DNA of 64,000 bases from Patescibacteria group bacterium (GTDB taxonomy: Bacteria; Patescibacteriota; Patescibacteriia; Patescibacteriales; UBA12465): contig JBAZKQ010000001.1 of assembly GCA_041650715.1 (NCBI GenBank), forward strand, positions 326,945 to 390,944, in the 5' to 3' direction. The notes below the pieces were generated by a model. That model saw only the letters and a program-made list of their open reading frames with translations, was not told the DNA's origin and did no database searches. Positions 3,234 to 53,260 of this stretch are shown here, piece by piece; the stretch's first letter is position 1; each line of letters opens with the position of its first letter. Made by a program: the position numbers and the translations under genes.

Positions 3234-4412
3234 CTATTTGAGTTTTTTGCTCTTATCGCGCTTGCGGCCATAATTAGCAAAACGATGGGCTTCTTCGCGC
3301 AACTTAAGAAGAGTCGGTTTTATGTTGTTGGCCAGATCGCGAATTTCATTTTTGGTCTTCGGAGTGAAAACTAATTTATCGCCGCCGAATTTAGAAATGC
3401 CGACGAGCGGGATGTTAATATTATTCTCGGTGAAGACGCGCGATAAAAAACTAATCTGCGGCGAGCCGCCGTCAATCATGATAATGTCAGGCATGGTCCA
3501 TTCCGTATGTTTAAAACGGCGCAAGAGCACCTCGCTGAGCGCGCGTTCATCGTCTCCGCCCGGCGCGTCTTTGATTTTAAAAAGGCGATACTCGCGTTTA
3601 GCCGCTTCCCCGTTTTCGAAAACCACCATCGAGCCGTAGCTTTCTTTACCTTGGTGATGAGAAATATCATAGCCTTCCAGGCGGTTAACTTTTAATTCAT
3701 TGAGATCTTCGTCGCGAGTCAGCAAGGAAACGTCCTGAATATGTTTAAGAGCGTTTATTTTATCCGGATTGTCTCGCATCAGTTTGGCGGTAAGTCGTTT
3801 CTTTTCACCGGCCAAAAGCAAGGAAATATTATTAATATTTTTTTTATAGTCACGCGCCGAAATAGCGTCAATACAGCCGCCCGGGCAAAGTCCGATTTGA
3901 TAATCGAAACAAGCCCGCCCGCTATGGGGCGTGCAGTTGCCGTAAGGGAAAATGCGTCGAATCAAACGGAGAGCTCCCTGGAGAAGATAGAAAGACTGGT
4001 AAGGCCCAAAGACTTTTGCCTTTGAGGCTGGAAATTTCTTTAAATCAGTCGCGCGCACGATTAGCGGCTTGGCAAAATCAATTTTCGGAATAACGACATA
4101 GATAAAGGAACGGTCATCACGGTCAACGATATTATACTTGGGCCAGAATTTTTTAATATTTTTCGCCTCAAGAATAATCGCTTCAAGTAGGGTGTCGCAG
4201 ACTTCATATTTTATATCAGAAGCGGCGTCCACCATCTCGGCAATGCGCGGCGAAATGTTTTTTTGGAAGTATTGGCTCAGGCGATTTTTTAAACTTGTGG
4301 CCCGGCCGACATAAAGAACCTTGCCTTTTTTATCCAACCAAAAATAAACTCCCGGCTTTTTCGGAATTGTTTTTAGTTTATTTTTTAATTGATTTTTTAG
4401 AGTTAAACTCAT
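3234..4412 (-). CDS. uvrC: excinuclease ABC subunit C, compact form (GIY-YIG + Cys-rich region + RNase H-like endonuclease domain only)
   Basis: GIY-YIG N-terminus (PGVYFWLDKKGKVLYVGRATSLKNRLSQYF). Four-Cys region (CTPHSGRACFDYQIGLCPGGC). C-terminal nuclease motifs (LEGYDISHHQG, IIMIDGG). 392 aa versus about 600 aa for the typical protein. Confidence 0.9.
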   Translation of the reverse strand: MSLTLKNQLKNKLKTIPKKPGVYFWLDKKGKVLYVGRATSLKNRLSQYFQKNISPRIAEMVDAASDIKYEVCDTLLEAIILEAKNIKKFWPKYNIVDRDDRSFIYVVIPKIDFAKPLIVRATDLKKFPASKAKVFGPYQSFYLLQGALRLIRRIFPYGNCTPHSGRACFDYQIGLCPGGCIDAISARDYKKNINNISLLLAGEKKRLTAKLMRDNPDKINALKHIQDVSLLTRDEDLNELKVNRLEGYDISHHQGKESYGSMVVFENGEAAKREYRLFKIKDAPGGDDERALSEVLLRRFKHTEWTMPDIIMIDGGSPQISFLSRVFTENNINIPLVGISKFGGDKLVFTPKTKNEIRDLANNIKPTLLKLREEAHRFANYGRKRDKSKKLK

Positions 4413-4707
4413 AAAGATATTTGCTTAGGTCAATTTTGTTGTCCTTAATAATAATACCTTCTTGGCGGAGAATGGCAATCTTGCGCTTGGGGCCGCTTGC
4501 AAAACCGCCGACTTCCCCGTTGGCGCGGATAACTCGGTGGCATGGGACAAGAGGCGCAAACGGATTTTTATTTAAGGTGTTACCGACGGCACGCGCTGCA
4601 CCAGGATTATTTAGAGCTCGGGCAATTTCTTTATACGTTGAAATTTTACCCTTGGGAATAAGGGCGCAATATTTATAGACGAGCTGTGGAAAACTTAAGT
4701 TATTCAT
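4378..4707 (-). CDS. ogt: methylated-DNA--protein-cysteine methyltransferase (MGMT/Ogt DNA-binding/catalytic domain only)
   Basis: 109 aa with the active-site motif PCHRVI and a helix-turn-helix region (ISTYKEIARALNNPGAARAVGNTL). Overlaps the uvrC start by 35 nt. Confidence 0.9.
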   Translation of the reverse strand: MNNLSFPQLVYKYCALIPKGKISTYKEIARALNNPGAARAVGNTLNKNPFAPLVPCHRVIRANGEVGGFASGPKRKIAILRQEGIIIKDNKIDLSKYLYEFNSKKSIKK

Positions 4708-4708
4708 A

Positions 4709-4736
4709 TTGACAATTTTTTAGCGTCTGATAATAT
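4709..4736 (+). promoter_or_regulatory. consensus sigma70-type promoter driving the plus-strand RNA below
   Basis: TTGACA 4709-4714, 16-nt spacer, TAATAT 4731-4736. Confidence 0.6.
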
Positions 4737-4740
4737 CAGG

Positions 4741-5024
4741 GTAGTTAGTCGTGGTTTGTCTAAGTTGCCCGCCTAACGCGCAGAGTTCATTTTACATTGC
4801 AATCCCGACACAAGGGATTTCCGGCCCGAAATAAGAAATGAAATTTCTTTTTCTCGAGAAAGGTGGCGAAGCAGATTGAATAATATCAACAGCATCATCA
4901 CATTCTTTCATCCAGAAAGAAATTTACCCCGAGCAGGCAAAAAGCTTATTAGGTCCTAAAGAACCGTGAAATTGAGTAAGGAAAACGTTATAACGTATTC
5001 CAACTTAAGACCCACGGTTTTTTT
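4741..5024 (+). ncRNA. candidate structured non-coding RNA of unknown class (~280 nt)
   Basis: ORF-free 315-bp gap. A promoter lies just upstream. Nt 4750-4767 pair with 5001-5017, followed by a T7 run. Internal long rod hairpin at 4840-4926 and local hairpins at 4801-4819 and 4985-4996. Confidence 0.5.
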
Positions 5025-5880
5025 ATTTGCTTAAAAGTCCAATCAGTAGGCTGGCGCCGACCGCCAGGCCTGCGCCGAGGTATTGAATTTTCGTTATCTT
5101 TTCTTTATTAATAATTATGCCAAGCGCAAGCGCAATAACGACATAACTTTCGGTTATCGCGATCGTAATTGAGAGTTCTTCTTTGGCAACAGCGAAGACA
5201 TAGGCTGTCCAAGCCAAGAGATCGACGACTACCATCACTAAAACGAGAAGCCAATTTTTCGCGCTCTCCCGGAAAAAATTATTTAAACTATTCTGGCGGA
5301 TCCAGACAAAACAGATTAATCCGCAAACAAACCATGGCAGCCAGAGGGCCATCAAGGGTGATATTTCCTTGGCCTGCGAAGCACTGCCGAAGTTTACGAT
5401 AGCGATTAAGACGCCGGAGAGAATTGCGAGCAGCGAGCCTTTTTCTAAAAAATCCTTTTTATTTATTTTAGTAGTATCAATCGAAATTAGAATGATGCCG
5501 ATAAATAAAATGATAATTAAGAATATTTGTCGCAGACCGAGACTCTCTCCGAAAACAAGAATGCCGAGCAGGATTGTTAAGGGTAGCTCAATCGACATGA
5601 TTATTTCGACGACCGATAGTTTTCCGATTTCCAAGGCTTTAAAATGAACATAACCGCTGGCAAAATTTGCCAGCCCTAAAATAATTAGGGTGATGAATTG
5701 CGCAGAGTTAATAGTTTTTAAGTCGTTAACTACAAACGGAATTAAAATTATTGAACTGAATAAACTAATCCAACAAAGGGTTTCAATTGGTCCGATTTTA
5801 TTAATTGTTTTTTGAATTAAAAAATCGCCCAAGCCCCAGCCGAACATCGCGCCAAATGCCAGTAGTATCGCTAAATTCAT
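5023..5880 (-). CDS. EamA/DMT-superfamily transporter
   Basis: 285 aa with about 10 predicted TM helices and a two-fold EamA-like architecture. Confidence 0.75.
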   Translation of the reverse strand: MNLAILLAFGAMFGWGLGDFLIQKTINKIGPIETLCWISLFSSIILIPFVVNDLKTINSAQFITLIILGLANFASGYVHFKALEIGKLSVVEIIMSIELPLTILLGILVFGESLGLRQIFLIIILFIGIILISIDTTKINKKDFLEKGSLLAILSGVLIAIVNFGSASQAKEISPLMALWLPWFVCGLICFVWIRQNSLNNFFRESAKNWLLVLVMVVVDLLAWTAYVFAVAKEELSITIAITESYVVIALALGIIINKEKITKIQYLGAGLAVGASLLIGLLSK

Positions 5881-5882
5881 AG

Positions 5883-8396
5883 TTACTTTAAATACTCTTT
5901 TAAATATTTTCCCGTAATGCTTTTCGGTTCGCGGACAATATCTTCCGGCGCGCCATGAGCGACCAAACGTCCCCCGTCTTCCCCGCCGTCCGGACCAAGA
6001 TCAATAATATAGTCCATTGATTTTAGCATATGCATATTATGCTCGATCACTAAAACAGAGTTTCCCTTCTCGACCAGTTTATTTAAAACGGCGAGCAACA
6101 TATCGATATCATAATAATGCAAACCAGTGGTCGGTTCATCGAGTAAATATAAAGTCCGTTTGCCGAGAGTATGAGTCAGCTCTTTGGCAATCTTAATGCG
6201 TTGGGCTTCCCCGCCTGATAAAGTCGTGGCGCTTTGGCCAATCTTAATATAACCGAGTCCGACTGATTGTAGAACTTTTAATTTATCAGTGATAAAATAA
6301 TTTCCTTCGAAATGATCAATTGCTTCATCAATGGTTAGGTCCAGGATCTCGGCGATGTTTTTATTTTTATATTTGACTTGTAAGGTTTCCCGGTTAAAAC
6401 GTTTACCGCGGCAAACTTCGCATTCAACCAGCACGGGAGGCAGAAAATGCATCTCTATTAGGTTCGCTCCGGCCCCCTGACAGGCCTCACAACGCCCACC
6501 AGGGCGGTTAAAGGAGAAACGGCCAATTCCGTATCCTCTCTCCCGGGAATCGGGCAAGGAGGCGAAAAAATCACGAATCGGGGTAAATATTCCGGTATAG
6601 GTAGCCGGGTTAGAGCGTGGCGTGCGGCCGATAGGCGATTGGTCGATAACTACTACCTTGTTTATGTATTCCGCGCCCCTGACATCTTTGGCAAATTCCA
6701 GTTTCGCTTTACCCGGGCGGTTTTTAATATGCGTGATATTTTTATAAACGACATCATATAAGAGCGATGATTTGCCGCTTCCGGAGACACCACTCACGCC
6801 GACAAGACGGCCGAGCGGGATTTCCACATTTAAGTTTTTTAGGTTATTAGCATAAGCGCCGACAATTTTTAGGGAGCCATGATTTTGTTCGCGCCGTTTG
6901 GCCGGTAAGCCGATTTCGCGTTGGCCGGCCAGGTATTGGAGAGTTAAAGATTTTTTTAGTTCTGTTTGATTCTTTTTTTCATTTAATAAATCCTTAGTAT
7001 TGCCACTCGCCACAACCTCCCCGCCGTGTACCCCGGCGAGCGGTCCCATATCAACTAAATAATCGGAGGCAAGTATCGTTTTTTCGTCGTGCTCAACAAT
7101 AATAACGGTATTATTTTTATCCCGTAATTTTTTCAGAGTGTCGATTAAGCGTTCGGTATCGCGTTCGTGCAAACCGATAGTCGGTTCATCCAGAACGTAG
7201 AGGGTGCGCGAAAGATGGGAGCCGATTTGGGAAGACAGGCGGATGCGCTGCGCTTCGCCCCCGGATAAAGTATGAGCTTCCCGTTCTAACGAAATATAAT
7301 TCAAACCGACTTTAAGTAAAAACTCAAGACGACTGATAATTTGGATAACAACATTCTCCGCGATTATTCTTTGGCGCTTCGTCATCTTCTCATAATATTT
7401 ATTAAAGAAGTCTAAACTTTTATTCATCGGTAGGCGGCAGACTTCGGCAATATTTTTACCGGCGATGCGGACTGATAAGGCTTCGGGGCGTAAACGGTCG
7501 CCTTTGCAGACCTTGCATTTATCATCCTTAAAGAAATTAGTTTTGCCGAGTCCGGAACATTCCGGGCAGGCGCCATGCGGTGAGTTGAAAGAGAAAAGAC
7601 GCGGTTCAACTTCCGGAAAAGAAAAATTATCATTCGGGCAGGTCCAATTTGATGATAATAAAAATTCTTGTTTTTTATATTGGGCAATAACCAGACCTTT
7701 ACTGTATTCGAGCGAATTTTCGACAGCCTCAAAAAGGCGCGATTGGTCGCTCAGTAGAATTTTATCGATAATGATTTCAATATCATGTTTTTGTTTTGGT
7801 GCGAGTTTAACTTGATCACGCAAGGAATGAATTTTTCCGTCGATGCGCGACTCGCTATAGCCGAGCGATAAATAATTATAAAGTATTTGGTAATATTCAC
7901 CTTTGCGGTCGCGGACAATCGGTGACATGATAGTAACATATTCTTCTTTTAATTCCTGACCGCGGTTGATAATAATATCCACCATTTCCTCAACAGTTAG
8001 TTTTTCAATTTTAGTGCCGCAGATTGGGCAAAAAACTTCGCCCACGCGCGCATAAAGAACACGCAAGTAATCATAAATATCCGTGAGTGTCCCCACAGTT
8101 GAACGCGGATTATGAGAGAGGGCTTTTTGATCGATAGAGATGGATGGAGCGAGACCAATCATCTCATCGACATCGGCCGCTTTCTTTTGACCCAAGAATT
8201 GGCGCATATAGGGCGACAAGGATTCGACGTATTGTCTCTGCCCTTCCGCAAAGATTGTATCAAAAGCCAGCGACGATTTGCCGCTCCCTGAAACGCCGGT
8301 AATAACGGTTAATTTATTATGCGGTATTTCTAAGTTGATATTTTTTAAGTTGTGCGTCCGCGCGCCGCGGATGATTAATTTTTCTTCACTTGCCAT
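5883..8396 (-). CDS. uvrA: excinuclease ABC subunit A lacking the insertion domain
   Basis: Two ABC modules ([10 protein letters not shown] twice, LSGGEAQRI twice) plus zinc modules. [11 protein letters not shown] is followed after 10 aa by CKVCKGDRL, where E. coli UvrA has about 110 aa. 837 aa in total. Confidence 0.95.
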
Positions 8397-8982
8397 ATTG
8401 GTTGTTTATAAACGGATTAGGTATATCAAAAGTAATTTTTTTGGTTTCTTTATTTATTACGTCAATTGGCGTGCCATATTTTTTATTATAGAGAGTATCC
8501 ACAGAACAGAATAGCGCCTGGCTATAATCAAAACCCAATTTTTCGCTAACTGTTTTTACTTCCTCTTCGGATTTTCCCTCGACTTCGACGTAGGGTTCAA
8601 GATAAGGCCATTCATCAATCATTACTTCGACACCATCCAAAGACCATAACTCGCGATAGCTTTCCTGGTAAGCTTTTTGTTTAGCCCCGATAGTTTCTAA
8701 AAAGTTAATACCTTCATTATAATTATCAATTTTAAGACAAATCTCTTTTTGGTCATCAATATTTGAGCCATTAACCAATTTAAAACTCATAGTAATCTTG
8801 TCCTGTTCATCCCTGACTCTTAACCATCCGCCCTTAATTTGATGTCCGCTTGGTAAATCAAGGCAGACTCTTTTTTGTAAAAATTCAGGTTTGATTAAAG
8901 TTGCGCCAGTTTCTTTTAATCTATTTCTGATTTCTTCTTTGTTAATATTAGTAAATGTTGCCTCGTATTCAATATTGATCAT
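8386..8982 (-). CDS. CYTH-domain protein (CyaB/triphosphatase-like)
   Basis: 198 aa. The N-terminal strand INIEYEATF resembles the CYTH ExExK signature with K replaced by T. Overall length and charge pattern fit the CYTH barrel. Overlaps the uvrA start by 11 nt. Confidence 0.5.
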
Positions 8983-9066
8983 AGTATTGACAATTATATT
9001 ATAATGTGTTATGATTATATTTCGCAGTTCTGTTATTCCGAAACTAACCCCCTAATCCCTATATTT

Positions 9067-9654
9067 ATGCGTTCTGTTCTTTTCATCGCCATTTTCGTGC
9101 TTTTGGCCAGCGCAATGTCTAATGCTCAGTCCATCGAGGCTTTTGCCAAGTTTGACCAGAATGGCAAACTCGTTAATAAAGATGCCAATATGGCGTTCTC
9201 AATTGCTCTGTCGAAGGATACGACCAGTTTCTGGAGCCATATGAAGTTTACTTCATTTATCCTTGTTGAGCCAGGTTGGGGCGAGTCAATGTTCGGTCTG
9301 TCCTACGCTCCGGCCAGCTGGGTCGAAATCGGTCTATCTGGAGGATTTGAGCAAAACCCGAATGTCTATCGCGGCTGTGCCACTCTCTGGCTTGGCAAAG
9401 GCAGGTTTTCCTCCTTCACTGCCTTCGAAAGGGGTGTCGGACACGATAATTGGTGGTATAGGAATATTACCAAGTATAAGGTGTCAGATGACATTTCGCT
9501 TGGTTTCCAGGGTTGGCGATATAATGGACTCGGCCCGATAATCGAGTTCGGCATTGTCAAACATGTCACGATCTGGATTAACCCGGTCTTAGACCCGGAA
9601 AAAGATAGTAACGGCAACAAAGCCGTAATAGTAGGTCTGGGGATTAACTTGTAA
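9067..9654 (+). CDS. secreted beta-strand-rich protein, unknown family
   Basis: Signal peptide MRSVLFIAIFVLLASAMSNAQS. Alternating aromatic/Gly-rich strands. The ATG at 9067 is preferred over the track start at 9004. Upstream TTGACA (8990) with TATGAT 17 nt later. Confidence 0.6.
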   Translation: MRSVLFIAIFVLLASAMSNAQSIEAFAKFDQNGKLVNKDANMAFSIALSKDTTSFWSHMKFTSFILVEPGWGESMFGLSYAPASWVEIGLSGGFEQNPNVYRGCATLWLGKGRFSSFTAFERGVGHDNWWYRNITKYKVSDDISLGFQGWRYNGLGPIIEFGIVKHVTIWINPVLDPEKDSNGNKAVIVGLGINL

Positions 9655-9675
9655 TCACCCGCCGAACAGCGTACC

Positions 9676-9705
9676 GAGCTTCTACTTTAGGAGCTCTTTT
9701 TTTTT
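9676..9705 (+). terminator. intrinsic terminator
   Basis: Stem gagctt / gagctc followed by a T9 run, directly after the 9067..9654 gene. Confidence 0.65.
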
Positions 9706-9724
9706 ATTTCAATTTACAGGTATT

Positions 9725-11560
9725 TTAATCTTCCGCCACGTCCAAAAATTCTTCAATTTTTTTGGTAATCGTGGTTGGGGTTATATTATATTTTTTGTTA
9801 TAAGCTAATTGTTTCGTGCGGCGGCGTTCAGCTTCATTAATCGCCCGTTTCATCGAATCGGTTTTTTTATCGGCGTATAGAATAATTTTACCTTTAACAT
9901 TTCTCGCGGCGCGGCCCATGGTTTGCATGAGTGAGGTTTGACTGCGTAAGAATCCTTCACGGTCGGCGTCCAGAATCGCCACCAGCGTTACTTCCGGCAA
10001 ATCAAGGCCTTCGCGCAACAGATTAACGCCGATTAAAACATCAAACTTCCCTTCCCGAAAATTCATCAATATTTCAGTGCGCTCGAAAGTTTTAATATCA
10101 GAATGTAGATAATTAGATCTGATGTTTTTATTATTTAAGTAGGTATTCAAATCTTCGGCTTGTTTTTTGGTTAAGGTATTAATAATGGCTCTTTCGCCAA
10201 GCGCAGCAATTTTAATTACTTCGGCCGTGATATCATTAATTTGGCTATAATTTTCTTTCTTGTTAAAGACCGGGCGGATTTCAATCTCGGGATCAACAAG
10301 ACCGGTCGGACGAATTACTTGTTCGGCAGTTTGCTTTGAGTTTTTTGCTTCAAAATCACCGGGAGTGGCAGTCGTAAAAATCATTTGGCCGATACGTTTT
10401 TCAAATTCCGGAAAACGTAGAGGGCGATTATCAAGGGCTGAGGGTAGGCGCCAGCCATATTGCACTAAAGTTTTTTTACGTGCTTGATCGCCGTTATACA
10501 TGCCGCGAATTTGCGGGATAGCGATATGAGATTCATCGACGATAGTTAAAAAATCCGGCTTACCATCTTTCCAGGGGAAATAGGAAATTAAAGAGTCCGG
10601 TGCTTCCCCGGCAAGTTTCCCTGTGATATGGCGCGAGTAATTTTCTATGCCGTGGCAGTAGCCAAGCGTGCGCAGCATTTCCATATCATATTTTGTGCGC
10701 CGCTCTAATCGTTCCGCTTCGAGTAGAAAACCCTCCTTTTTAAAATAGGCTAAGCGTTCTTTTAATTCCTCATTAATATTTTTTATCGCCTGCTCAATCT
10801 GTGGTTTTGTGGAAACAAAATGCTTCGGCGGAAAAATAACAATTTCTTCGAGGTTACCGATAATATTTTTTGTGACATTATCAACGATAGTTAAATCTGA
10901 TATCACTTGTCCGGCGAGGTCGAGACGATAAATAACATTCTCCGACATGGAGCGAATTTCAAAAGCATCACCGCGCACGCGAAATTGGCCGCGCTTAATT
11001 TCGCCGTTGACGCGTTCAAATTGGATTTTAATTAATTGCTTAATTAAATCGGCGCGGACAATCGTCTTCCCTTTTTCTAAAACGAGACGCGCCTCTAAAT
11101 AAGTTAGCGGCACGCCCAAATTATATATACAGGAAACGGAAGCAACGATGATGACATCACGGCGTGAAACTAAAGCCGAAGTCGCCCCATGACGTAAACG
11201 ATCAATCTCTTGGTTAATCATCGCCTCCTTATCAATATAAGTATCGGTAATCGGCAGATAGGCTTCTGGTTGATAGTAGTCGTAATAGGAAACAAAATAA
11301 TGAACCGCATTTTCCGGAAAGAAGTTTTTGTATTCGCGGTAGAGTTGCGCCGCCAGTGATTTATTGGGGGCAATTACTAAAACTGGTCGGTCCAGTTCAC
11401 TTATGACATTGGCGACGGTAAAAGTCTTTCCCGACCCGGTAACGCCCAGTAAAGTTTGGTAATCATAACCCGCCTCTATTCCTTGTAAGAGTTTTTTAAT
11501 AGCTGCCGGTTGGTCACCGGCTGGCGCGAAATCAGATTTTAACTTAAATAATCCGGACAT
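9725..11560 (-). CDS. uvrB: excinuclease ABC subunit B lacking the C-terminal UVR domain
   Basis: N-terminus FKLKSDFAPAGDQPAAI, helicase motifs (GVTGSGKT, DESH), and an end ..ERRRTKQLAYNKKYNITPTTITKKIEEFLDVAED without the coiled-coil UVR tail. The ATG at 11560 is preferred over the TTG at 11572. Confidence 0.95.
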   Translation of the reverse strand: MSGLFKLKSDFAPAGDQPAAIKKLLQGIEAGYDYQTLLGVTGSGKTFTVANVISELDRPVLVIAPNKSLAAQLYREYKNFFPENAVHYFVSYYDYYQPEAYLPITDTYIDKEAMINQEIDRLRHGATSALVSRRDVIIVASVSCIYNLGVPLTYLEARLVLEKGKTIVRADLIKQLIKIQFERVNGEIKRGQFRVRGDAFEIRSMSENVIYRLDLAGQVISDLTIVDNVTKNIIGNLEEIVIFPPKHFVSTKPQIEQAIKNINEELKERLAYFKKEGFLLEAERLERRTKYDMEMLRTLGYCHGIENYSRHITGKLAGEAPDSLISYFPWKDGKPDFLTIVDESHIAIPQIRGMYNGDQARKKTLVQYGWRLPSALDNRPLRFPEFEKRIGQMIFTTATPGDFEAKNSKQTAEQVIRPTGLVDPEIEIRPVFNKKENYSQINDITAEVIKIAALGERAIINTLTKKQAEDLNTYLNNKNIRSNYLHSDIKTFERTEILMNFREGKFDVLIGVNLLREGLDLPEVTLVAILDADREGFLRSQTSLMQTMGRAARNVKGKIILYADKKTDSMKRAINEAERRRTKQLAYNKKYNITPTTITKKIEEFLDVAED

Positions 11561-11583
11561 ATTAATAATCAATATTAACGGGT

Positions 11584-47931: not shown

Positions 47932-48429
47932 CTATTTGATAATGCCAATATTATGCTTAATAATCTCTAAGGCAGCTTTATGTAGTCTTGGCGAAGAATG
48001 ACTGGCCGTCAGATTTTTTAGAACAAGCACTGACATTCCGCGATCAAATGCATCTCGGGCAAAAGTCAGCACACAGTTTTCCGTATCAAAACCGGCCAAC
48101 TCGACCTGATCTATTTTATTTTTCTTTAACAAACTGAACAATTTGTTATCAACAAAACTGCTATATGTAAATTTAGGAAATAGATGGTTTCCATTAATAA
48201 GTTCTTTAATTTCATCCGCCAAATCTGTCTGATTTTTATCCATAAAACCACTCCATTTTAAGCTGCGTATAAAATTACTTCCTTTGCGATTAAAGTATTG
48301 AGTAAAGATTAAAAGATCATAGTGATTATTAGTCTTTAAAATATACTTTCGAATTTTTATTACAATAGGCTTTGTTAATTTATTAATAAAGCCTTTTTGA
48401 ACATCAATGATTATAAGTGCTTTTTTCAT
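47932..48429 (-). CDS. isochorismatase-family cysteine hydrolase
   Basis: ALIIIDVQKGF and GFDTENCV catalytic contexts. Confidence 0.82.
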   Translation of the reverse strand: MKKALIIIDVQKGFINKLTKPIVIKIRKYILKTNNHYDLLIFTQYFNRKGSNFIRSLKWSGFMDKNQTDLADEIKELINGNHLFPKFTYSSFVDNKLFSLLKKNKIDQVELAGFDTENCVLTFARDAFDRGMSVLVLKNLTASHSSPRLHKAALEIIKHNIGIIK

Positions 48430-48442
48430 AAAATTACAGTTG

Positions 48443-49024
48443 CTAACTCGGTCTTTTTTTACTTTTTTTAAAATCTGATTTTAACTTCGAAAAAATAAAA
48501 GTATTTCTAAAATCCTTAAAGTATTCACTATAAGTATCTTCTCGATATTTCCCTTCAAGAGTATACCCAGATTTTTTGGCAACACCAGCGGATGGGATAT
48601 TTCTTTCGTCGCATTTTATCTGAATTCTATTCAAATTAAGATTTAAAAAGGATTCTTTTTCCAGAACACCAAGCGCCTCAGTCATATAACCATTTCTCGT
48701 AAATTTTTTGGATAACCAATAACCAATTTCGCCAGATTTATTTTTTTTATTAATATCAAATATACCTATATTGCCAATATATTCGTTATTTAAATAAATT
48801 CCGTAATCAGTTTTTTCACCCAGTTTAAATTTTTCATCAACGGTAAATAGATATTTTAAAGCATCCTCGACATTATTTTCGCTAGTTACCCAAGGAAACC
48901 AGGGTGATAAATGTTGACGATTTTCATCAACAACCCTAAATAGTGCCTTTGCCGTTAACAAAGTTGGCTTGAGTCTTCTGAGAATAATTCTTTTTCCCGG
49001 CAATGTCGATTTAGATTTAGGCAT
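48443..49024 (-). CDS. GNAT family N-acetyltransferase (RimJ/RimL-like)
   Basis: 193 aa. EIGYWLSKKFTRNGYMTEAL acetyl-CoA-binding region. Confidence 0.8.
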   Translation of the reverse strand: MPKSKSTLPGKRIILRRLKPTLLTAKALFRVVDENRQHLSPWFPWVTSENNVEDALKYLFTVDEKFKLGEKTDYGIYLNNEYIGNIGIFDINKKNKSGEIGYWLSKKFTRNGYMTEALGVLEKESFLNLNLNRIQIKCDERNIPSAGVAKKSGYTLEGKYREDTYSEYFKDFRNTFIFSKLKSDFKKSKKRPS

Positions 49025-49102
49025 ATTGAATGAATTTATCTAATTTATTCTAATAATGTTTATAGAACAAAAATAGCACGAAAAGTGCTATTTTGTAAAA
49101 TT

Positions 49103-49129
49103 GCTCCGGGATAGGGACTCAGTTGGAAC
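49103..49129 (-). repeat. tRNA-Gln 3'-end-like 27-nt motif, copy A
   Basis: gctccgggatagggactcagttggaac. 22/27 identical to copy C. The first 16 nt resemble the tRNA-Gln 3' end. Confidence 0.8.
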
Positions 49130-49181
49130 AGTCTTAATGATTATTTAGCTTTTTATCATAACCAACATCATTTTGAATATA

Positions 49182-49421
49182 TTAAGCCTGATATTTTCCT
49201 ACAATTGGATATTTATTAATAATATCCATTAAATGTATGCTATGAAAATCCTCCGATAAATCTTGACCCGCTTGGTGATTGATGTGAGAACCGTTAATAA
49301 AGGCAGTCGTCACATCATAAACCAAACCATCAACGGCGACATAGGCCGGCTGGCCATTTTGTCCGTCGTAAAGACTCAGAGTTTTCGCAGTAAATATTTT
49401 GTCATTTATTTTATTTTTCAT
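49182..49421 (-). CDS. cytochrome b5-like heme/steroid-binding domain protein
   Basis: 79 aa. LSLYDGQNGQPAYVAVDGLVYDVT...HQAGQDLSEDF. Confidence 0.7.
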   Translation of the reverse strand: MKNKINDKIFTAKTLSLYDGQNGQPAYVAVDGLVYDVTTAFINGSHINHQAGQDLSEDFHSIHLMDIINKYPIVGKYQA

Positions 49422-49526
49422 ATTTTTAATTTGTAATTACAAATTTAAAAATACCGCGAAATATGGTATTTTGTCTATTTATCTATATCGTAAATATATA
49501 GCGGTCTTGTCTATGTTTTACTAAAT

Positions 49527-49827
49527 TTACATTCCGAGCATAACATCATACTTCCCATATACTTCTTTTTTTAAATCGGCCACTTTTGGATTGTTCCAAT
49601 CATGCATCCATTCGGATGCGATTGTTTCCCAGGTGATCGGAATAACGCCGGCTTGCAGCATACGTTCAATACCATATTTATGGGCGTCAGGCGTGGCATC
49701 TCCAGCGGCATCCATGAGACCATAAATATCCATTCCCCTCTGGATAAATTGAGGTCAGTATTGTAGGCACCTTCAATATGGCCGCTGCCTTATAAGTCTA
49801 ATTTTGAATTTTTCATATGATTAATAA
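49527..49827 (-). pseudogene. remnant of an isochorismatase/YcaC-family hydrolase gene
   Basis: Only the C-terminal 68 aa are in frame (DAAGDA...ERMLQAGVIPITWETIASEWMHDW). Upstream are an 8-codon start (MKNSKLDL, then a stop) and an out-of-frame AAAILKVPTILTSIYPEGNG segment. Confidence 0.7.
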
Positions 49828-50226
49828 TTATTCCGTCGTTTTTCCGTCAAATTCCTCTTTATTCTTCTCGGCCTCTTCTTTAGTCGCACGAATAATGCCA
49901 TCCTTATGGTTCGCGGGCGAGTAAATGGTATAAAGTTTTAGACTTTCCGAATTTGAAGTATTGATAATATTATGTTGAGCACCAGACGGCACAATTATTG
50001 CCGAGCCATCGGTGACAGGGTATTCATTCCCATCAATAATGCACTTGCCCTGCCCTTTTTCAAAACGGAAAAACTGATCATTATTCTCATGCACTTCCAT
50101 TCCAATGTCCTCGTTTGGCAAAAGACTCATTAGAACAAGCTGGCTATGCTTAGCAGTATACAAAACTTTACGAAAATTAGTATTTTTTAAAGTTTCTTTT
50201 TCTATATTAGCGTTGAATCCTTTCAT
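49828..50226 (-). CDS. cupin domain protein
   Basis: 132 aa. GMEVHENNDQFFRFEKGQG ... VPSGAQHNIIN two-motif cupin signature. Confidence 0.85.
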   Translation of the reverse strand: MKGFNANIEKETLKNTNFRKVLYTAKHSQLVLMSLLPNEDIGMEVHENNDQFFRFEKGQGKCIIDGNEYPVTDGSAIIVPSGAQHNIINTSNSESLKLYTIYSPANHKDGIIRATKEEAEKNKEEFDGKTTE

Positions 50227-53185: not shown

Positions 53186-53189
53186 TATG

Positions 53190-53260
53190 CTCGGGGATAG
53201 GGATTCGAACCCCAATAGCCAGGACCAGAACCTGGAGTCCTACCGTTAGACGATCCCCGA
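53190..53260 (-). tRNA. tRNA-Gln (anticodon CUG)
   Basis: Hand-folded cloverleaf. Acceptor TCGGGGA/TCCCCGA, D arm GTCT-AACGGTA-GGAC, anticodon arm CCAGG-TTCTGGT-CCTGG, T arm TGGGG-TTCGAAT-CCCTA. U1-A72 and discriminator G73 as in bacterial tRNA-Gln. CCA is not encoded. Confidence 0.9.

What the first reader, a model, noticed from the sequence alone, without database searches (positions are those of the whole stretch)
3234..11560. Concerted loss of the UvrB-UvrC interaction (UVR) domains, plus loss of the UvrC (HhH)2 domain
UvrB ends at ...NKKYNITPTTITKKIEEFLDVAED. It therefore lacks the ~60-aa C-terminal tail whose coiled-coil UVR domain normally recruits UvrC. UvrC (392 aa) goes from the Cys-rich region (..ISLLLAGEKKRL..) to the RNase H-like nuclease domain (LEGYDISHHQG) in about 45 aa, where E. 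coli has about 185 aa including the matching UVR domain. It stops right after ..HRFANYGRKRDKSKKLK, so it has no helix-hairpin-helix pair. Both partners have lost the same interface while keeping their catalytic motifs, which argues for co-evolution rather than decay. It also raises the question of how the 3' and 5' incisions are coupled here.
Basis: partly seen in the sequence, partly recalled or inferred. Interest (0 to 1): 0.6.

Follow-up and report, generated by a model that had tools for sequence, protein, structure and literature searches.

The report
Stripped-down UvrABC repair system without handshake
This candidate-phyla-radiation bacterium, like many of its relatives, keeps a conserved DNA excision-repair trio (UvrA, UvrB, UvrC) in which both halves of the textbook UvrB-UvrC docking motif and several DNA-binding or regulatory domains are gone, so the cutting enzyme must be recruited some other way.

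Summary
UvrB (9725-11560, 611 aa) stops just after its helicase core and has no linker or UVR domain. UvrC (3234-4412, 392 aa) has no (HhH)2 domain and no inactive RNase H1 platform domain. It keeps only two short helices of its UVR hairpin, because the central 17 profile positions, which carry the Phe/Arg interface residues, are deleted. UvrA (837 aa) also lacks its insertion domain. Both UvrC nuclease sites and the four cluster cysteines are invariant, and dN/dS is about 0.03. The uvrB-uvrA-uvrC gene order is conserved.

Across 83 loci where both partners could be scored, 60 lack UVR in both, 23 have it in both, and none is discordant. At least two losses are independent: one shared deletion across many Parcubacteria-type lineages, and a separate event in L115. 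UvrCs without HhH and RNase H1 are far more widespread in the radiation and mostly keep UVR, so that loss came earlier and was not concerted with the UVR loss.

The most likely reading is a working, streamlined excinuclease that UvrB recruits without the UVR contact, as Cho is. Losing the autoinhibitory RNase H1 domain probably made that contact dispensable. This is a new variant of a known system. I found no description of it in the literature searched, and NCBI labels these proteins only "GIY-YIG nuclease family protein".

The parts
9725..11560 (-). uvrB, 611 aa from the ATG at 11560 (ORF listing offers an upstream TTG at 11572). It has the complete helicase core (domains 1a, 1b, 2, 3) but no linker and no UVR domain 4.
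   Evidence: (NF003673 909 bits, cutoff 743, profile positions 2-597 of 653).
9725..9880 (-). C-terminal end of UvrB. The PF12344 segment (aa 565-606 in TTG numbering) is followed by 9 residues (EEFLDVAED) and the stop codon. Canonical UvrBs continue here for 54-83 aa with a linker and the UVR hairpin.
   Evidence: The next gene downstream is convergent (9004-9654, plus strand), so there is no room for a split-off domain.
5883..8396 (-). uvrA, 837 aa. It has both ABC modules, the zinc modules and the UvrB-binding domain, but lacks the insertion domain.
   Evidence: UvrA_inter present, no UvrA_DNA-bind; aa 287-836 match profile positions 402-941 of 943.
7533..7550 (-). Site in uvrA (about aa 283-288, GKTNFF) where roughly 115 residues of the insertion domain are missing relative to solved UvrA structures.
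   Evidence: query 5-~286 aligns to 9gxk_A 24-~305, and query 286-836 aligns to 420-960.
3234..4412 (-). uvrC, 392 aa, a minimal dual nuclease.
   Evidence: (TIGR00194 305 bits, cutoff 285).
4131..4355 (-). UvrC GIY-YIG 3'-incision nuclease domain (aa 20-94). Y23, Y34, R37, R44, E82 and N94 are invariant.
3873..3935 (-). UvrC four-cysteine motif (C160, C168, C176, C180), the predicted iron-sulfur cluster ligands. All four are invariant.
   Evidence: PF27096 UvrC_M in homologs.
3729..3803 (-). Remnant of the UvrB-binding UVR hairpin: two short helices (aa 204-214 and 216-228) joined by the invariant N215-P216. The hairpin tip that carries the Phe/Arg interface residues is deleted.
   Evidence: the role of the Phe/Arg residues is from PMC10085695.
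3693..3728 (-). Short, low-confidence (probably flexible) tether (aa 229-240). It replaces the ~120-aa inactive RNase H1 domain of canonical UvrC.
   Evidence: pLDDT below 50; PF22920 absent here, present in L079.
3276..3692 (-). UvrC catalytic RNase H-like 5'-incision domain (aa 241-379). D249, D314 and H376 are invariant.
3234..3275 (-). Basic C-terminal tail (NYGRKRDKSKKLK) followed by the stop codon. No (HhH)2 domain follows.
   Evidence: The 186-bp spacer before the L10 ribosomal protein gene gives no HhH hit.

Best explanation
This is a working, evolutionarily streamlined UvrABC excision-repair system, typical of a large part of the candidate phyla radiation (Falkowbacteria and other Parcubacteria-type lineages).

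Inferred steps. UvrA, without its insertion domain, still loads UvrB through the retained UvrB-binding domain. UvrB, without its autoinhibitory and UvrC-binding domain 4, forms the pre-incision complex. The 392-aa UvrC is recruited without the UVR-UVR contact. Recruitment would go through other surfaces of the UvrB-DNA complex and the distorted DNA, as reported for Cho. The GIY-YIG domain makes the 3' cut. The RNase H domain, held about 12 residues away on a flexible tether, makes the 5' cut on the nicked DNA without an (HhH)2 clamp.

Evolutionary reading (inferred). In canonical UvrC the UVR contact mainly releases the GIY-YIG domain from the inactive RNase H1 platform. Once RNase H1 was lost deep in the radiation, that release was no longer needed. 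The handshake became dispensable and was removed from both partners together.

Shown: the domain content, its conservation, purifying selection, the order of losses and the strict co-occurrence. Not shown: activity, incision positions and the replacement interface.
For: - All three proteins pass NCBI equivalog cutoffs for UvrA, UvrB and UvrC.
- Both nuclease sites and the four cysteines are invariant across 55 homologs. dN/dS is 0.02-0.04.
- The truncated forms and the gene order uvrB-uvrA-x-uvrC are conserved in Falkow-, Magasanik-, Azam- and Pacebacteria and others.
- Among 83 scored pairs, 60 are UVR-/UVR-, 23 are UVR+/UVR+ and none is discordant. L115 is a second, mechanistically different loss.
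- UvrCs without RNase H1 and HhH that still carry UVR are the sister groups of the UVR-less clade. RNase H1 loss therefore preceded UVR loss.
- Literature: RNase H1 blocks the GIY-YIG site, and UvrB binding to helices alpha7-alpha8 is proposed to release it. D. radiodurans UvrC without (HhH)2 keeps full 3' incision and partial 5' incision. Its C-terminal half is recruited by 3'-nicked DNA without a UvrB contact (PMC10085695). UvrB domain 4 is autoinhibitory (PMC7835731).
Against: - No biochemical data exist for any member of this group.
- In E. coli the UVR-UVR contact is required for pre-incision complex formation and 3' incision, and (HhH)2 is required for 5' incision (PMC7835731). Function here therefore requires an unidentified substitute contact.
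- No sequence feature that could compensate was found. The UvrB indels at aa ~334 and ~445 also occur in UVR+ lineages, and no accessory gene is conserved in the cluster.
- Only 64 kb of this genome and +/-10 kb of each relative were searched for detached domains.
- The claim that Cho acts independently of the UvrB C-terminus rests on my recollection of Moolenaar et al. 2002 (PNAS 99:1467). That paper is not in the library.
Confidence: 0.65

Rival explanations
1. The missing modules are supplied in trans. A separate small protein encoded elsewhere in the genome, carrying a UVR-like coiled coil and/or an (HhH)2 domain, bridges UvrB and UvrC or clamps the DNA. Under this reading the handshake is relocated rather than lost.
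For: Only the 64-kb window and +/-10 kb around relatives' genes could be searched. The stub helices of the UvrC UVR hairpin are strongly conserved, including invariant N215 and P216. They might therefore still bind something.
Against: UVR, HhH and RNase H1 profiles give no hit in any frame of the window or in about 80 loci of the UVR-less clade. The same profiles readily hit the controls. UvrB has no UVR for such an adaptor to dock onto. The genes between uvrB, uvrA and uvrC differ between lineages, so no conserved partner travels with the cluster.
Confidence: 0.12
2. The trio no longer performs classical coupled dual incision. UvrA and UvrB might act as a damage sensor or translocase, while the short UvrC works as a largely UvrB-independent, structure-specific nuclease. 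For example, it might make a single nick that other enzymes then process.
For: The canonical recruitment contact, the autoinhibitory platform and the DNA clamp are all absent. NCBI's pipeline does not even name the protein UvrC. D. radiodurans UvrC fragments show unexpectedly plastic incision behaviour (PMC10085695).
Against: The three genes stay tightly linked in the same order across many lineages. UVR is lost strictly together in UvrB and UvrC, which implies the two proteins still co-evolve as partners. Both nuclease active sites remain invariant.
Confidence: 0.15
3. The truncations are decay or assembly artefacts: pseudogenes, frameshifts or chimeric metagenome bins.
For: Most of the related sequences come from metagenome-assembled genomes.
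Against: The same ends and the same deletion junction recur in about 60 independent assemblies, including closed chromosomes. dN/dS is about 0.03. Catalytic residues are invariant. No out-of-frame remnants of the missing domains lie downstream.
Confidence: 0.02

Closest known systems
Canonical UvrABC excinuclease (E. coli, Bacillus, Thermotoga, Deinococcus)
   Same: The proteins are orthologous and pass NCBI equivalog cutoffs. UvrA keeps its ABC modules and UvrB-binding domain. UvrB keeps its helicase core. UvrC keeps the GIY-YIG domain, the four-cysteine motif and the catalytic RNase H domain, with all catalytic residues.
   Different: Five modules are missing:
- UvrB domain 4 (UVR)
- the tip of the UVR hairpin in UvrC
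- the inactive RNase H1 domain (PF22920)
- the (HhH)2 domain
- the UvrA insertion domain
Cho (E. coli YdjQ, the UvrC homolog)
   Same: Both have a GIY-YIG nuclease plus a Cys-rich region without a UvrB-binding UVR motif (PMC1564403; PMC10085695). Cho still cuts at UvrB-DNA complexes, and from memory of Moolenaar 2002 it does so through a different part of UvrB. This is the best precedent for UVR-independent recruitment.
   Different: Cho has its own C-terminal domain, has no RNase H nuclease and makes only a 3' cut. The window protein is UvrC-derived (TIGR00194 305 bits, against 49 bits for the Cho model whose cutoff is 367) and keeps the 5'-incision domain.
UvrB* and engineered truncations: UvrB lacking its C-terminus, UvrC-delta(HhH)2, UvrC-N and UvrC-C of D. 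radiodurans
   Same: These are laboratory versions of the same deletions. Delta(HhH)2 keeps 3' incision and partial 5' incision. UvrC-C cuts 3'-nicked DNA without a UvrB contact (PMC10085695). Domain 4 of UvrB is autoinhibitory (PMC7835731).
   Different: Those are crippled derivatives of full-length proteins. In E. coli, loss of the UVR contact abolishes 3' incision. Here all the deletions are combined in a natural, conserved system under selection.
Short UvrCs of other candidate-phyla-radiation lineages that keep UVR (for example L081, L085, L103, and L077)
   Same: They have the same architecture of about 390-460 aa without RNase H1 and HhH. They often have the same gene order, and several also have a UvrA without the insertion domain.
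   Different: They keep a recognisable UVR motif, and their UvrBs keep the linker and UVR domain.

Membership tests
UvrC (excinuclease ABC subunit C) | N-terminal GIY-YIG nuclease with its catalytic Tyr, Tyr, Arg, Glu and Asn residues | tested here: met
   PF01541 at aa 20-94. Aligns to 1yd6. Y23, Y34, R44, E82 and N94 are invariant.
UvrC (excinuclease ABC subunit C) | Four-cysteine (iron-sulfur) middle region | tested here: met
   C160, C168, C176 and C180 are invariant. PF27096 UvrC_M is found in homologs.
UvrC (excinuclease ABC subunit C) | UvrB-binding UVR motif (PF02151) | tested here: not met
   No Pfam hit at E<=1. The central 17 of 40 profile positions are deleted. Controls are positive.
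UvrC (excinuclease ABC subunit C) | Central inactive RNase H1 domain (PF22920) | tested here: not met
   Absent. Present in Clostridium L079.
UvrC (excinuclease ABC subunit C) | Catalytic RNase H-like domain with the Asp-Asp-His triad | tested here: met
   PF08459 at aa 241-379, E = 4e-36. Aligns to 2nrt. D249, D314 and H376 are invariant.
UvrC (excinuclease ABC subunit C) | [quoted passage not shown] | tested here: not met
   No HHH family hit. The protein ends 19 aa after EAHRF. The home-made HhH profile is negative.
UvrC (excinuclease ABC subunit C) | Whole-protein score above a curated equivalog cutoff | tested here: met
   TIGR00194 scores 305 bits against a cutoff of 285.45. The other UvrC equivalog models score below their cutoffs.
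UvrC (excinuclease ABC subunit C) | UvrB-dependent dual incision around a lesion | not testable with these tools
   Needs biochemistry.
UvrB | Helicase core (domains 1a, 1b, 2, 3) including the UvrA-interaction domain | tested here: met
   Pfam ResIII, UvrB_inter, Helicase_C and PF12344. NF003673 scores 909 bits against a cutoff of 743. Aligns end to end with solved UvrBs up to residue 599.
UvrB | C-terminal domain 4 (UVR coiled coil that binds UvrC) | tested here: not met
   Profile positions 598-653 are unmatched. No PF02151 hit. The stop codon lies 9 aa after PF12344.
UvrA, class I | Two ABC ATPase modules plus the UvrB-binding domain | tested here: met
   PF00005 in four stretches and PF17760 at aa 134-240. 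NF001503 scores 1191 bits against a cutoff of 1147.
UvrA, class I | Insertion domain (DNA-contacting) | tested here: not met
   About 115 residues are missing between query aa ~286 and 288 relative to 9gxk, 2r6f and 3pih. No UvrA_DNA-bind hit.
Cho | [quoted passage not shown] | tested here: not met
   NF007833 scores 49 bits against a cutoff of 367. An RNase H domain is present.

The most novel reading that the evidence does not exclude
The UVR-UVR handshake, the RNase H1 platform and the (HhH)2 clamp are regulatory add-ons rather than core parts of bacterial excision repair. A 611-aa UvrB and a 392-aa UvrC would form a self-sufficient minimal excinuclease. It would use a still undescribed docking surface, for example the conserved stub helices and the iron-sulfur region of UvrC against the UvrB core or the DNA bubble. 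That surface may also exist, unnoticed, in canonical systems.
Probability: 0.35. Interest if true: 0.7.

Novelty: new variant of a known kind. Interest (0 to 1): 0.55.

Why it matters
Textbook bacterial excision repair depends on the UvrB C-terminal coiled coil gripping its twin in UvrC to trigger the first cut, and on an (HhH)2 clamp for the second cut. A large branch of bacteria appears to do without both, under strong selection.

If the system is active, it defines the minimal parts list of the excinuclease. It would point to a second UvrB-UvrC docking mode, and it gives a small natural system for structural work on the long-elusive UvrB-UvrC-DNA incision complex.

There is also a practical consequence. 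NCBI labels these proteins only "GIY-YIG nuclease family protein". Genome-based surveys may therefore wrongly score candidate-phyla-radiation bacteria as lacking UvrC.

Tried and rejected
1. I looked for compensating insertions in UvrB. Two indels relative to solved UvrBs (aa ~334 WKDGK and aa ~445 NKKENY) also occur in UVR+ sister lineages, so they are not linked to the loss.

2. I looked for a conserved accessory gene inside the cluster. The intervening genes differ between lineages: MGMT, EamA and CYTH here, other genes in L161, L163 and L165.

3. I first counted L127 and L134 as further independent UVR-less UvrCs. A full-sensitivity profile search shows divergent but recognisable UVR motifs in both, so I dropped them. 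L138 is similarly ambiguous.

4. I considered the P0251-type linker (FLKSxxPKT...) as an independent deletion. Its member L161 groups with the KENP clade in the tree. It may therefore be further shrinkage, and I do not count it as independent.

5. I tried to obtain UvrB partners for the L115-like lineage.

6. Taxon names for the UVR+ short UvrCs could not be obtained.

7. A UvrB-UvrC complex prediction was not attempted. The structure tool takes single chains and returns no coordinates or inter-chain confidence.

8. Literature searches for a prior description (UvrC with Patescibacteria or candidate phyla radiation) found nothing relevant.

Full report
**What is in the window**

Five genes lie head to tail on the minus strand between 3234 and 11572, with one plus-strand ORF (9004-9654) among them.
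- uvrC, 3234-4412, 392 aa.
- A 109-aa methylguanine-methyltransferase-like gene, 4378-4707.
- An EamA-type transporter, 5023-5880.
- uvrA, 5883-8396, 837 aa.
- A CYTH-domain gene, 8386-8982.
- uvrB, 9725-11572.

The uvrB start is better placed at the ATG at 11560. That gives 611 aa, the length of nearly all of its 120 closest homologs, and it matches the finding's end coordinate. All three Uvr proteins exceed NCBI equivalog cutoffs: UvrB 909 bits against 743, UvrA 1191 against 1147, and UvrC TIGR00194 305 against 285.

The closest relatives are labelled Candidatus Falkowbacteria or Patescibacteria group.

**Check of the observation**

Pfam at E<=1 gives these results.
- UvrC: only GIY-YIG (aa 20-94) and the catalytic RNase H domain (241-379).
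- UvrB: the helicase core families and PF12344 (565-606).
- No UVR (PF02151), no HHH family and no PF22920 in either protein.

UvrB aligns to residues 4-599 of a 661-aa solved UvrB. It ends nine residues after PF12344, and the next gene is convergent. UvrC ends 19 residues after its EAHRF motif, where canonical UvrCs continue for about 72.

Non-detection is not due to general divergence. Pfam finds UVR in the UvrB and short UvrC of related loci L081 and L103, and in the short UvrC of L077. It finds UVR, PF22920 and HHH in a Clostridium UvrC.

I built profiles for the UvrC UVR motif, the UvrB tail, the (HhH)2 tail and the middle domain from related sequences. They hit those controls strongly. 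They find nothing in any reading frame of the 64-kb window (best E = 0.085). At E<=0.001 they find nothing in 76 related loci.

**Refinement of the observation**

An alignment of the segment between the last cysteine and the RNase H domain shows that most short UvrCs carry the motif LxxEMKxASKxxxFEKAAxxRxQIFALxHIxD. The window protein reads KKRLTAKLMRD-NP-DKINALKHIQD. Profile positions 1-12 and 30-40 remain, and the central 17 are gone.

The deleted part is the tip of the helical hairpin. In other species this tip holds the Phe and Arg residues shown to be key to the UvrB-UvrC interface (PMC10085695).

An AlphaFold2 model (mean pLDDT 79.5) predicts the following.
- Two stub helices (204-214 and 216-228), joined at the invariant N215-P216.
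- A low-confidence 12-residue tether (229-240).
- The RNase H domain.

So the UvrB-binding element is gutted, not erased, and the remnant is strongly conserved.

Two further losses belong to the same picture.
- The ~120-aa region between UVR and the catalytic domain is absent. This region is now known to be an inactive RNase H1 platform (PMC10085695).
- UvrA lacks its ~115-aa insertion domain. Query residues 5-~286 align to 9gxk_A 24-~305, and 286-836 align to 420-960.

**Not decay**

Several results exclude decay.
- In 55 homologs of 72-92% identity, the GIY-YIG residues (Y23, Y34, R37, R44, E82, N94), the four cysteines (C160, C168, C176, C180) and the RNase H triad (D249, D314, H376) are all invariant.
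- Against the closest genomes dS is saturated (above 1.2), and dN/dS is 0.02-0.04 for all three genes.
- The 120 best UvrC homologs are 359-414 aa and the 120 best UvrB homologs are 608-625 aa. None has a precomputed UVR or HHH hit.

**Distribution**

A scan of species-representative genomes with UvrA returned 80 loci.
- In about 55 candidate-phyla-radiation genomes, uvrB, uvrA and uvrC lie together. UvrB ends 0-17 residues after the core and UvrC is about 385-400 aa.
- Clostridium loci show the canonical forms.

A search of 1.84 billion cluster representatives with UvrC shows that short UvrCs are a very large family. Of the 137 best representatives in which the EAHRF motif was found, 118 have a tail of only 16-34 residues. 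Most also lack the middle domain. Most of these nevertheless keep the UVR motif.

The UVR-less form shares one deletion junction (KKENP[ED]K...ALKHIQDV). Proteins with this junction are labelled Falkow-, Magasanik-, Azam-, Harrison-, Pace- and Wolfebacteria, Minisyncoccota and Parcubacteria. Three further lineages examined in their contigs have a UvrB of 605-661 aa without UVR, a UvrA of 832-843 aa and a UvrC of 387-392 aa, in the same order.

**Test of concerted loss**

A metagenome scan seeded with UVR-containing short UvrCs gave 80 more loci. I scored every locus where both the UvrC linker and the UvrB C-terminus are visible.

| UvrC UVR | UvrB UVR | Loci |
|---|---|---|
| absent | absent | 60 |
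| present | present | 23 |
| one only | one only | 0 |

These loci are related, so the count overstates the number of events. A neighbour-joining tree of UvrC, built without the linker columns, puts all KENP-type sequences in one clade. That clade counts as one event.

L115 lies far from that clade, among UVR-containing lineages. Its UvrC linker is full length but has no recognisable UVR motif. Its UvrB ends at a different position, three residues after the core. This is a second, mechanistically different paired loss.

The order of events follows from the tree and the counts.
1. Loss of RNase H1 and (HhH)2 in UvrC, which is the most widespread state. 59 scored UvrCs lack both but keep UVR, and 11 lack RNase H1 but keep HhH.
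2. Loss of the UvrA insertion domain, which also occurs in about ten UVR-containing lineages.
3. Paired loss of UVR.

**Likely mechanism**

Canonical knowledge gives the background.
- The UvrC element homologous to the UvrB C-terminal domain is required for UvrB binding, pre-incision complex formation and 3' incision. (HhH)2 is required for ssDNA binding and 5' incision. UvrB domain 4 is autoinhibitory (PMC7835731).
- In the D. radiodurans model, the GIY-YIG site is blocked by packing against RNase H1, and UvrB binding to helices alpha7-alpha8 is proposed to release it.
- D. radiodurans UvrC without (HhH)2 keeps full 3' incision and partial 5' incision. Its C-terminal half is recruited by 3'-nicked DNA without contacting UvrB (PMC10085695).

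My inference is as follows. Once RNase H1 was lost, the release function of the handshake was obsolete. Recruitment could then rely on other contacts with the UvrB-DNA complex, as reported for Cho, which lacks a UvrB-binding motif (PMC1564403). That Cho uses a different part of UvrB is my recollection of Moolenaar et al. 2002, which is not held in the library. The two nuclease domains now sit on a short tether, which may offset the missing clamp. None of this has been tested experimentally.

**Rivals**

- A trans-acting adaptor encoded elsewhere cannot be excluded, because only the window and short flanks of relatives were searchable. Against it, UvrB has nothing for a UVR adaptor to grip, and no conserved partner gene travels with the cluster.
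- A non-canonical role, such as UvrB-independent nicking, fits poorly with the strict linkage and the paired loss.
- Decay or an assembly artefact is effectively excluded.

**Comparison with known systems and novelty**

The proteins are UvrA, UvrB and UvrC orthologs that fail several family-defining domain tests; the membership table gives the details. The 2006 survey of UvrC-like architectures lists C4-UvrBb-EndoV-HhH, the Cho variants and a Mycoplasma form without the Cys-rich region. It lists no form with C4 and the nuclease alone. Literature searches found no description of this reduced system.

It is a new variant of a known system, not a new kind of system. Interest is moderate to high for repair specialists, because nature has combined the classic crippling deletions into a conserved system. 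The Cho precedent and the D. radiodurans truncation data temper the surprise.

Noticed in passing
window 5883-8396 (-): UvrA lacks the ~115-aa DNA-contacting insertion domain but keeps the UvrB-binding domain and zinc modules. UvrAs without this domain also occur in about ten lineages whose UvrB and UvrC still have UVR, so this loss is older and broader than the UVR loss.
   Followed up: partly
window 4378-4707 (-): A 109-aa single-domain O6-methylguanine methyltransferase-like gene (PF01035, active-site PCHRV retained). It overlaps the uvrC start by 35 nt, which suggests co-expression with the repair cluster.
   Followed up: partly
window 8386-8982 (-): A CYTH-domain gene overlaps the uvrA start codon region by 11 nt. 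It is not conserved at this position in other lineages.
   Followed up: no
P0019, P0042, P0251, P0467 and others: NCBI names these short UvrCs only 'GIY-YIG nuclease family protein', while JGI calls them excinuclease ABC subunit C. Annotation-based surveys may therefore score these genomes as lacking UvrC.
   Followed up: partly
L164 202-1044 versus L163 4253-6238: In one Magasanikbacteria contig variant, the position of uvrB holds a 280-aa product with phage-integrase domains plus a UvrB PF12344 tail. The sister contig has an intact uvrB there. This may be an integrase insertion into uvrB.
   Followed up: no
L115 58-1494 (+): This independent UVR-less UvrC carries a ~50-aa Pro/Arg/Gly-rich low-complexity insertion inside its catalytic RNase H domain.
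   Followed up: no
L163 4253-6238: The Magasanikbacteria UvrB has a ~23-aa insertion near aa 445 and a 30-aa basic, non-UVR C-terminal tail (…PDAPDPAQNRTGKISIEPDRRGKRSVKRSRA).
   Followed up: no
window 48000-50000: GC content drops to 0.33, against about 0.41 elsewhere. The stretch holds small accessory genes (GNAT acetyltransferase-like, isochorismatase-like, cupin) and is flanked by a CPBP-type membrane protease and MsrB.
   Followed up: partly
window 53189-53260 (-): tRNA-Gln(CTG) is the only RNA gene detected in the 64-kb window.
   Followed up: yes
window 9004-9654 (+): A 216-aa ORF with a hydrophobic N-terminal segment, convergent with uvrB. It was not compared with any protein family, and it occupies the space where a UvrB C-terminal extension would otherwise be.
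   Followed up: no
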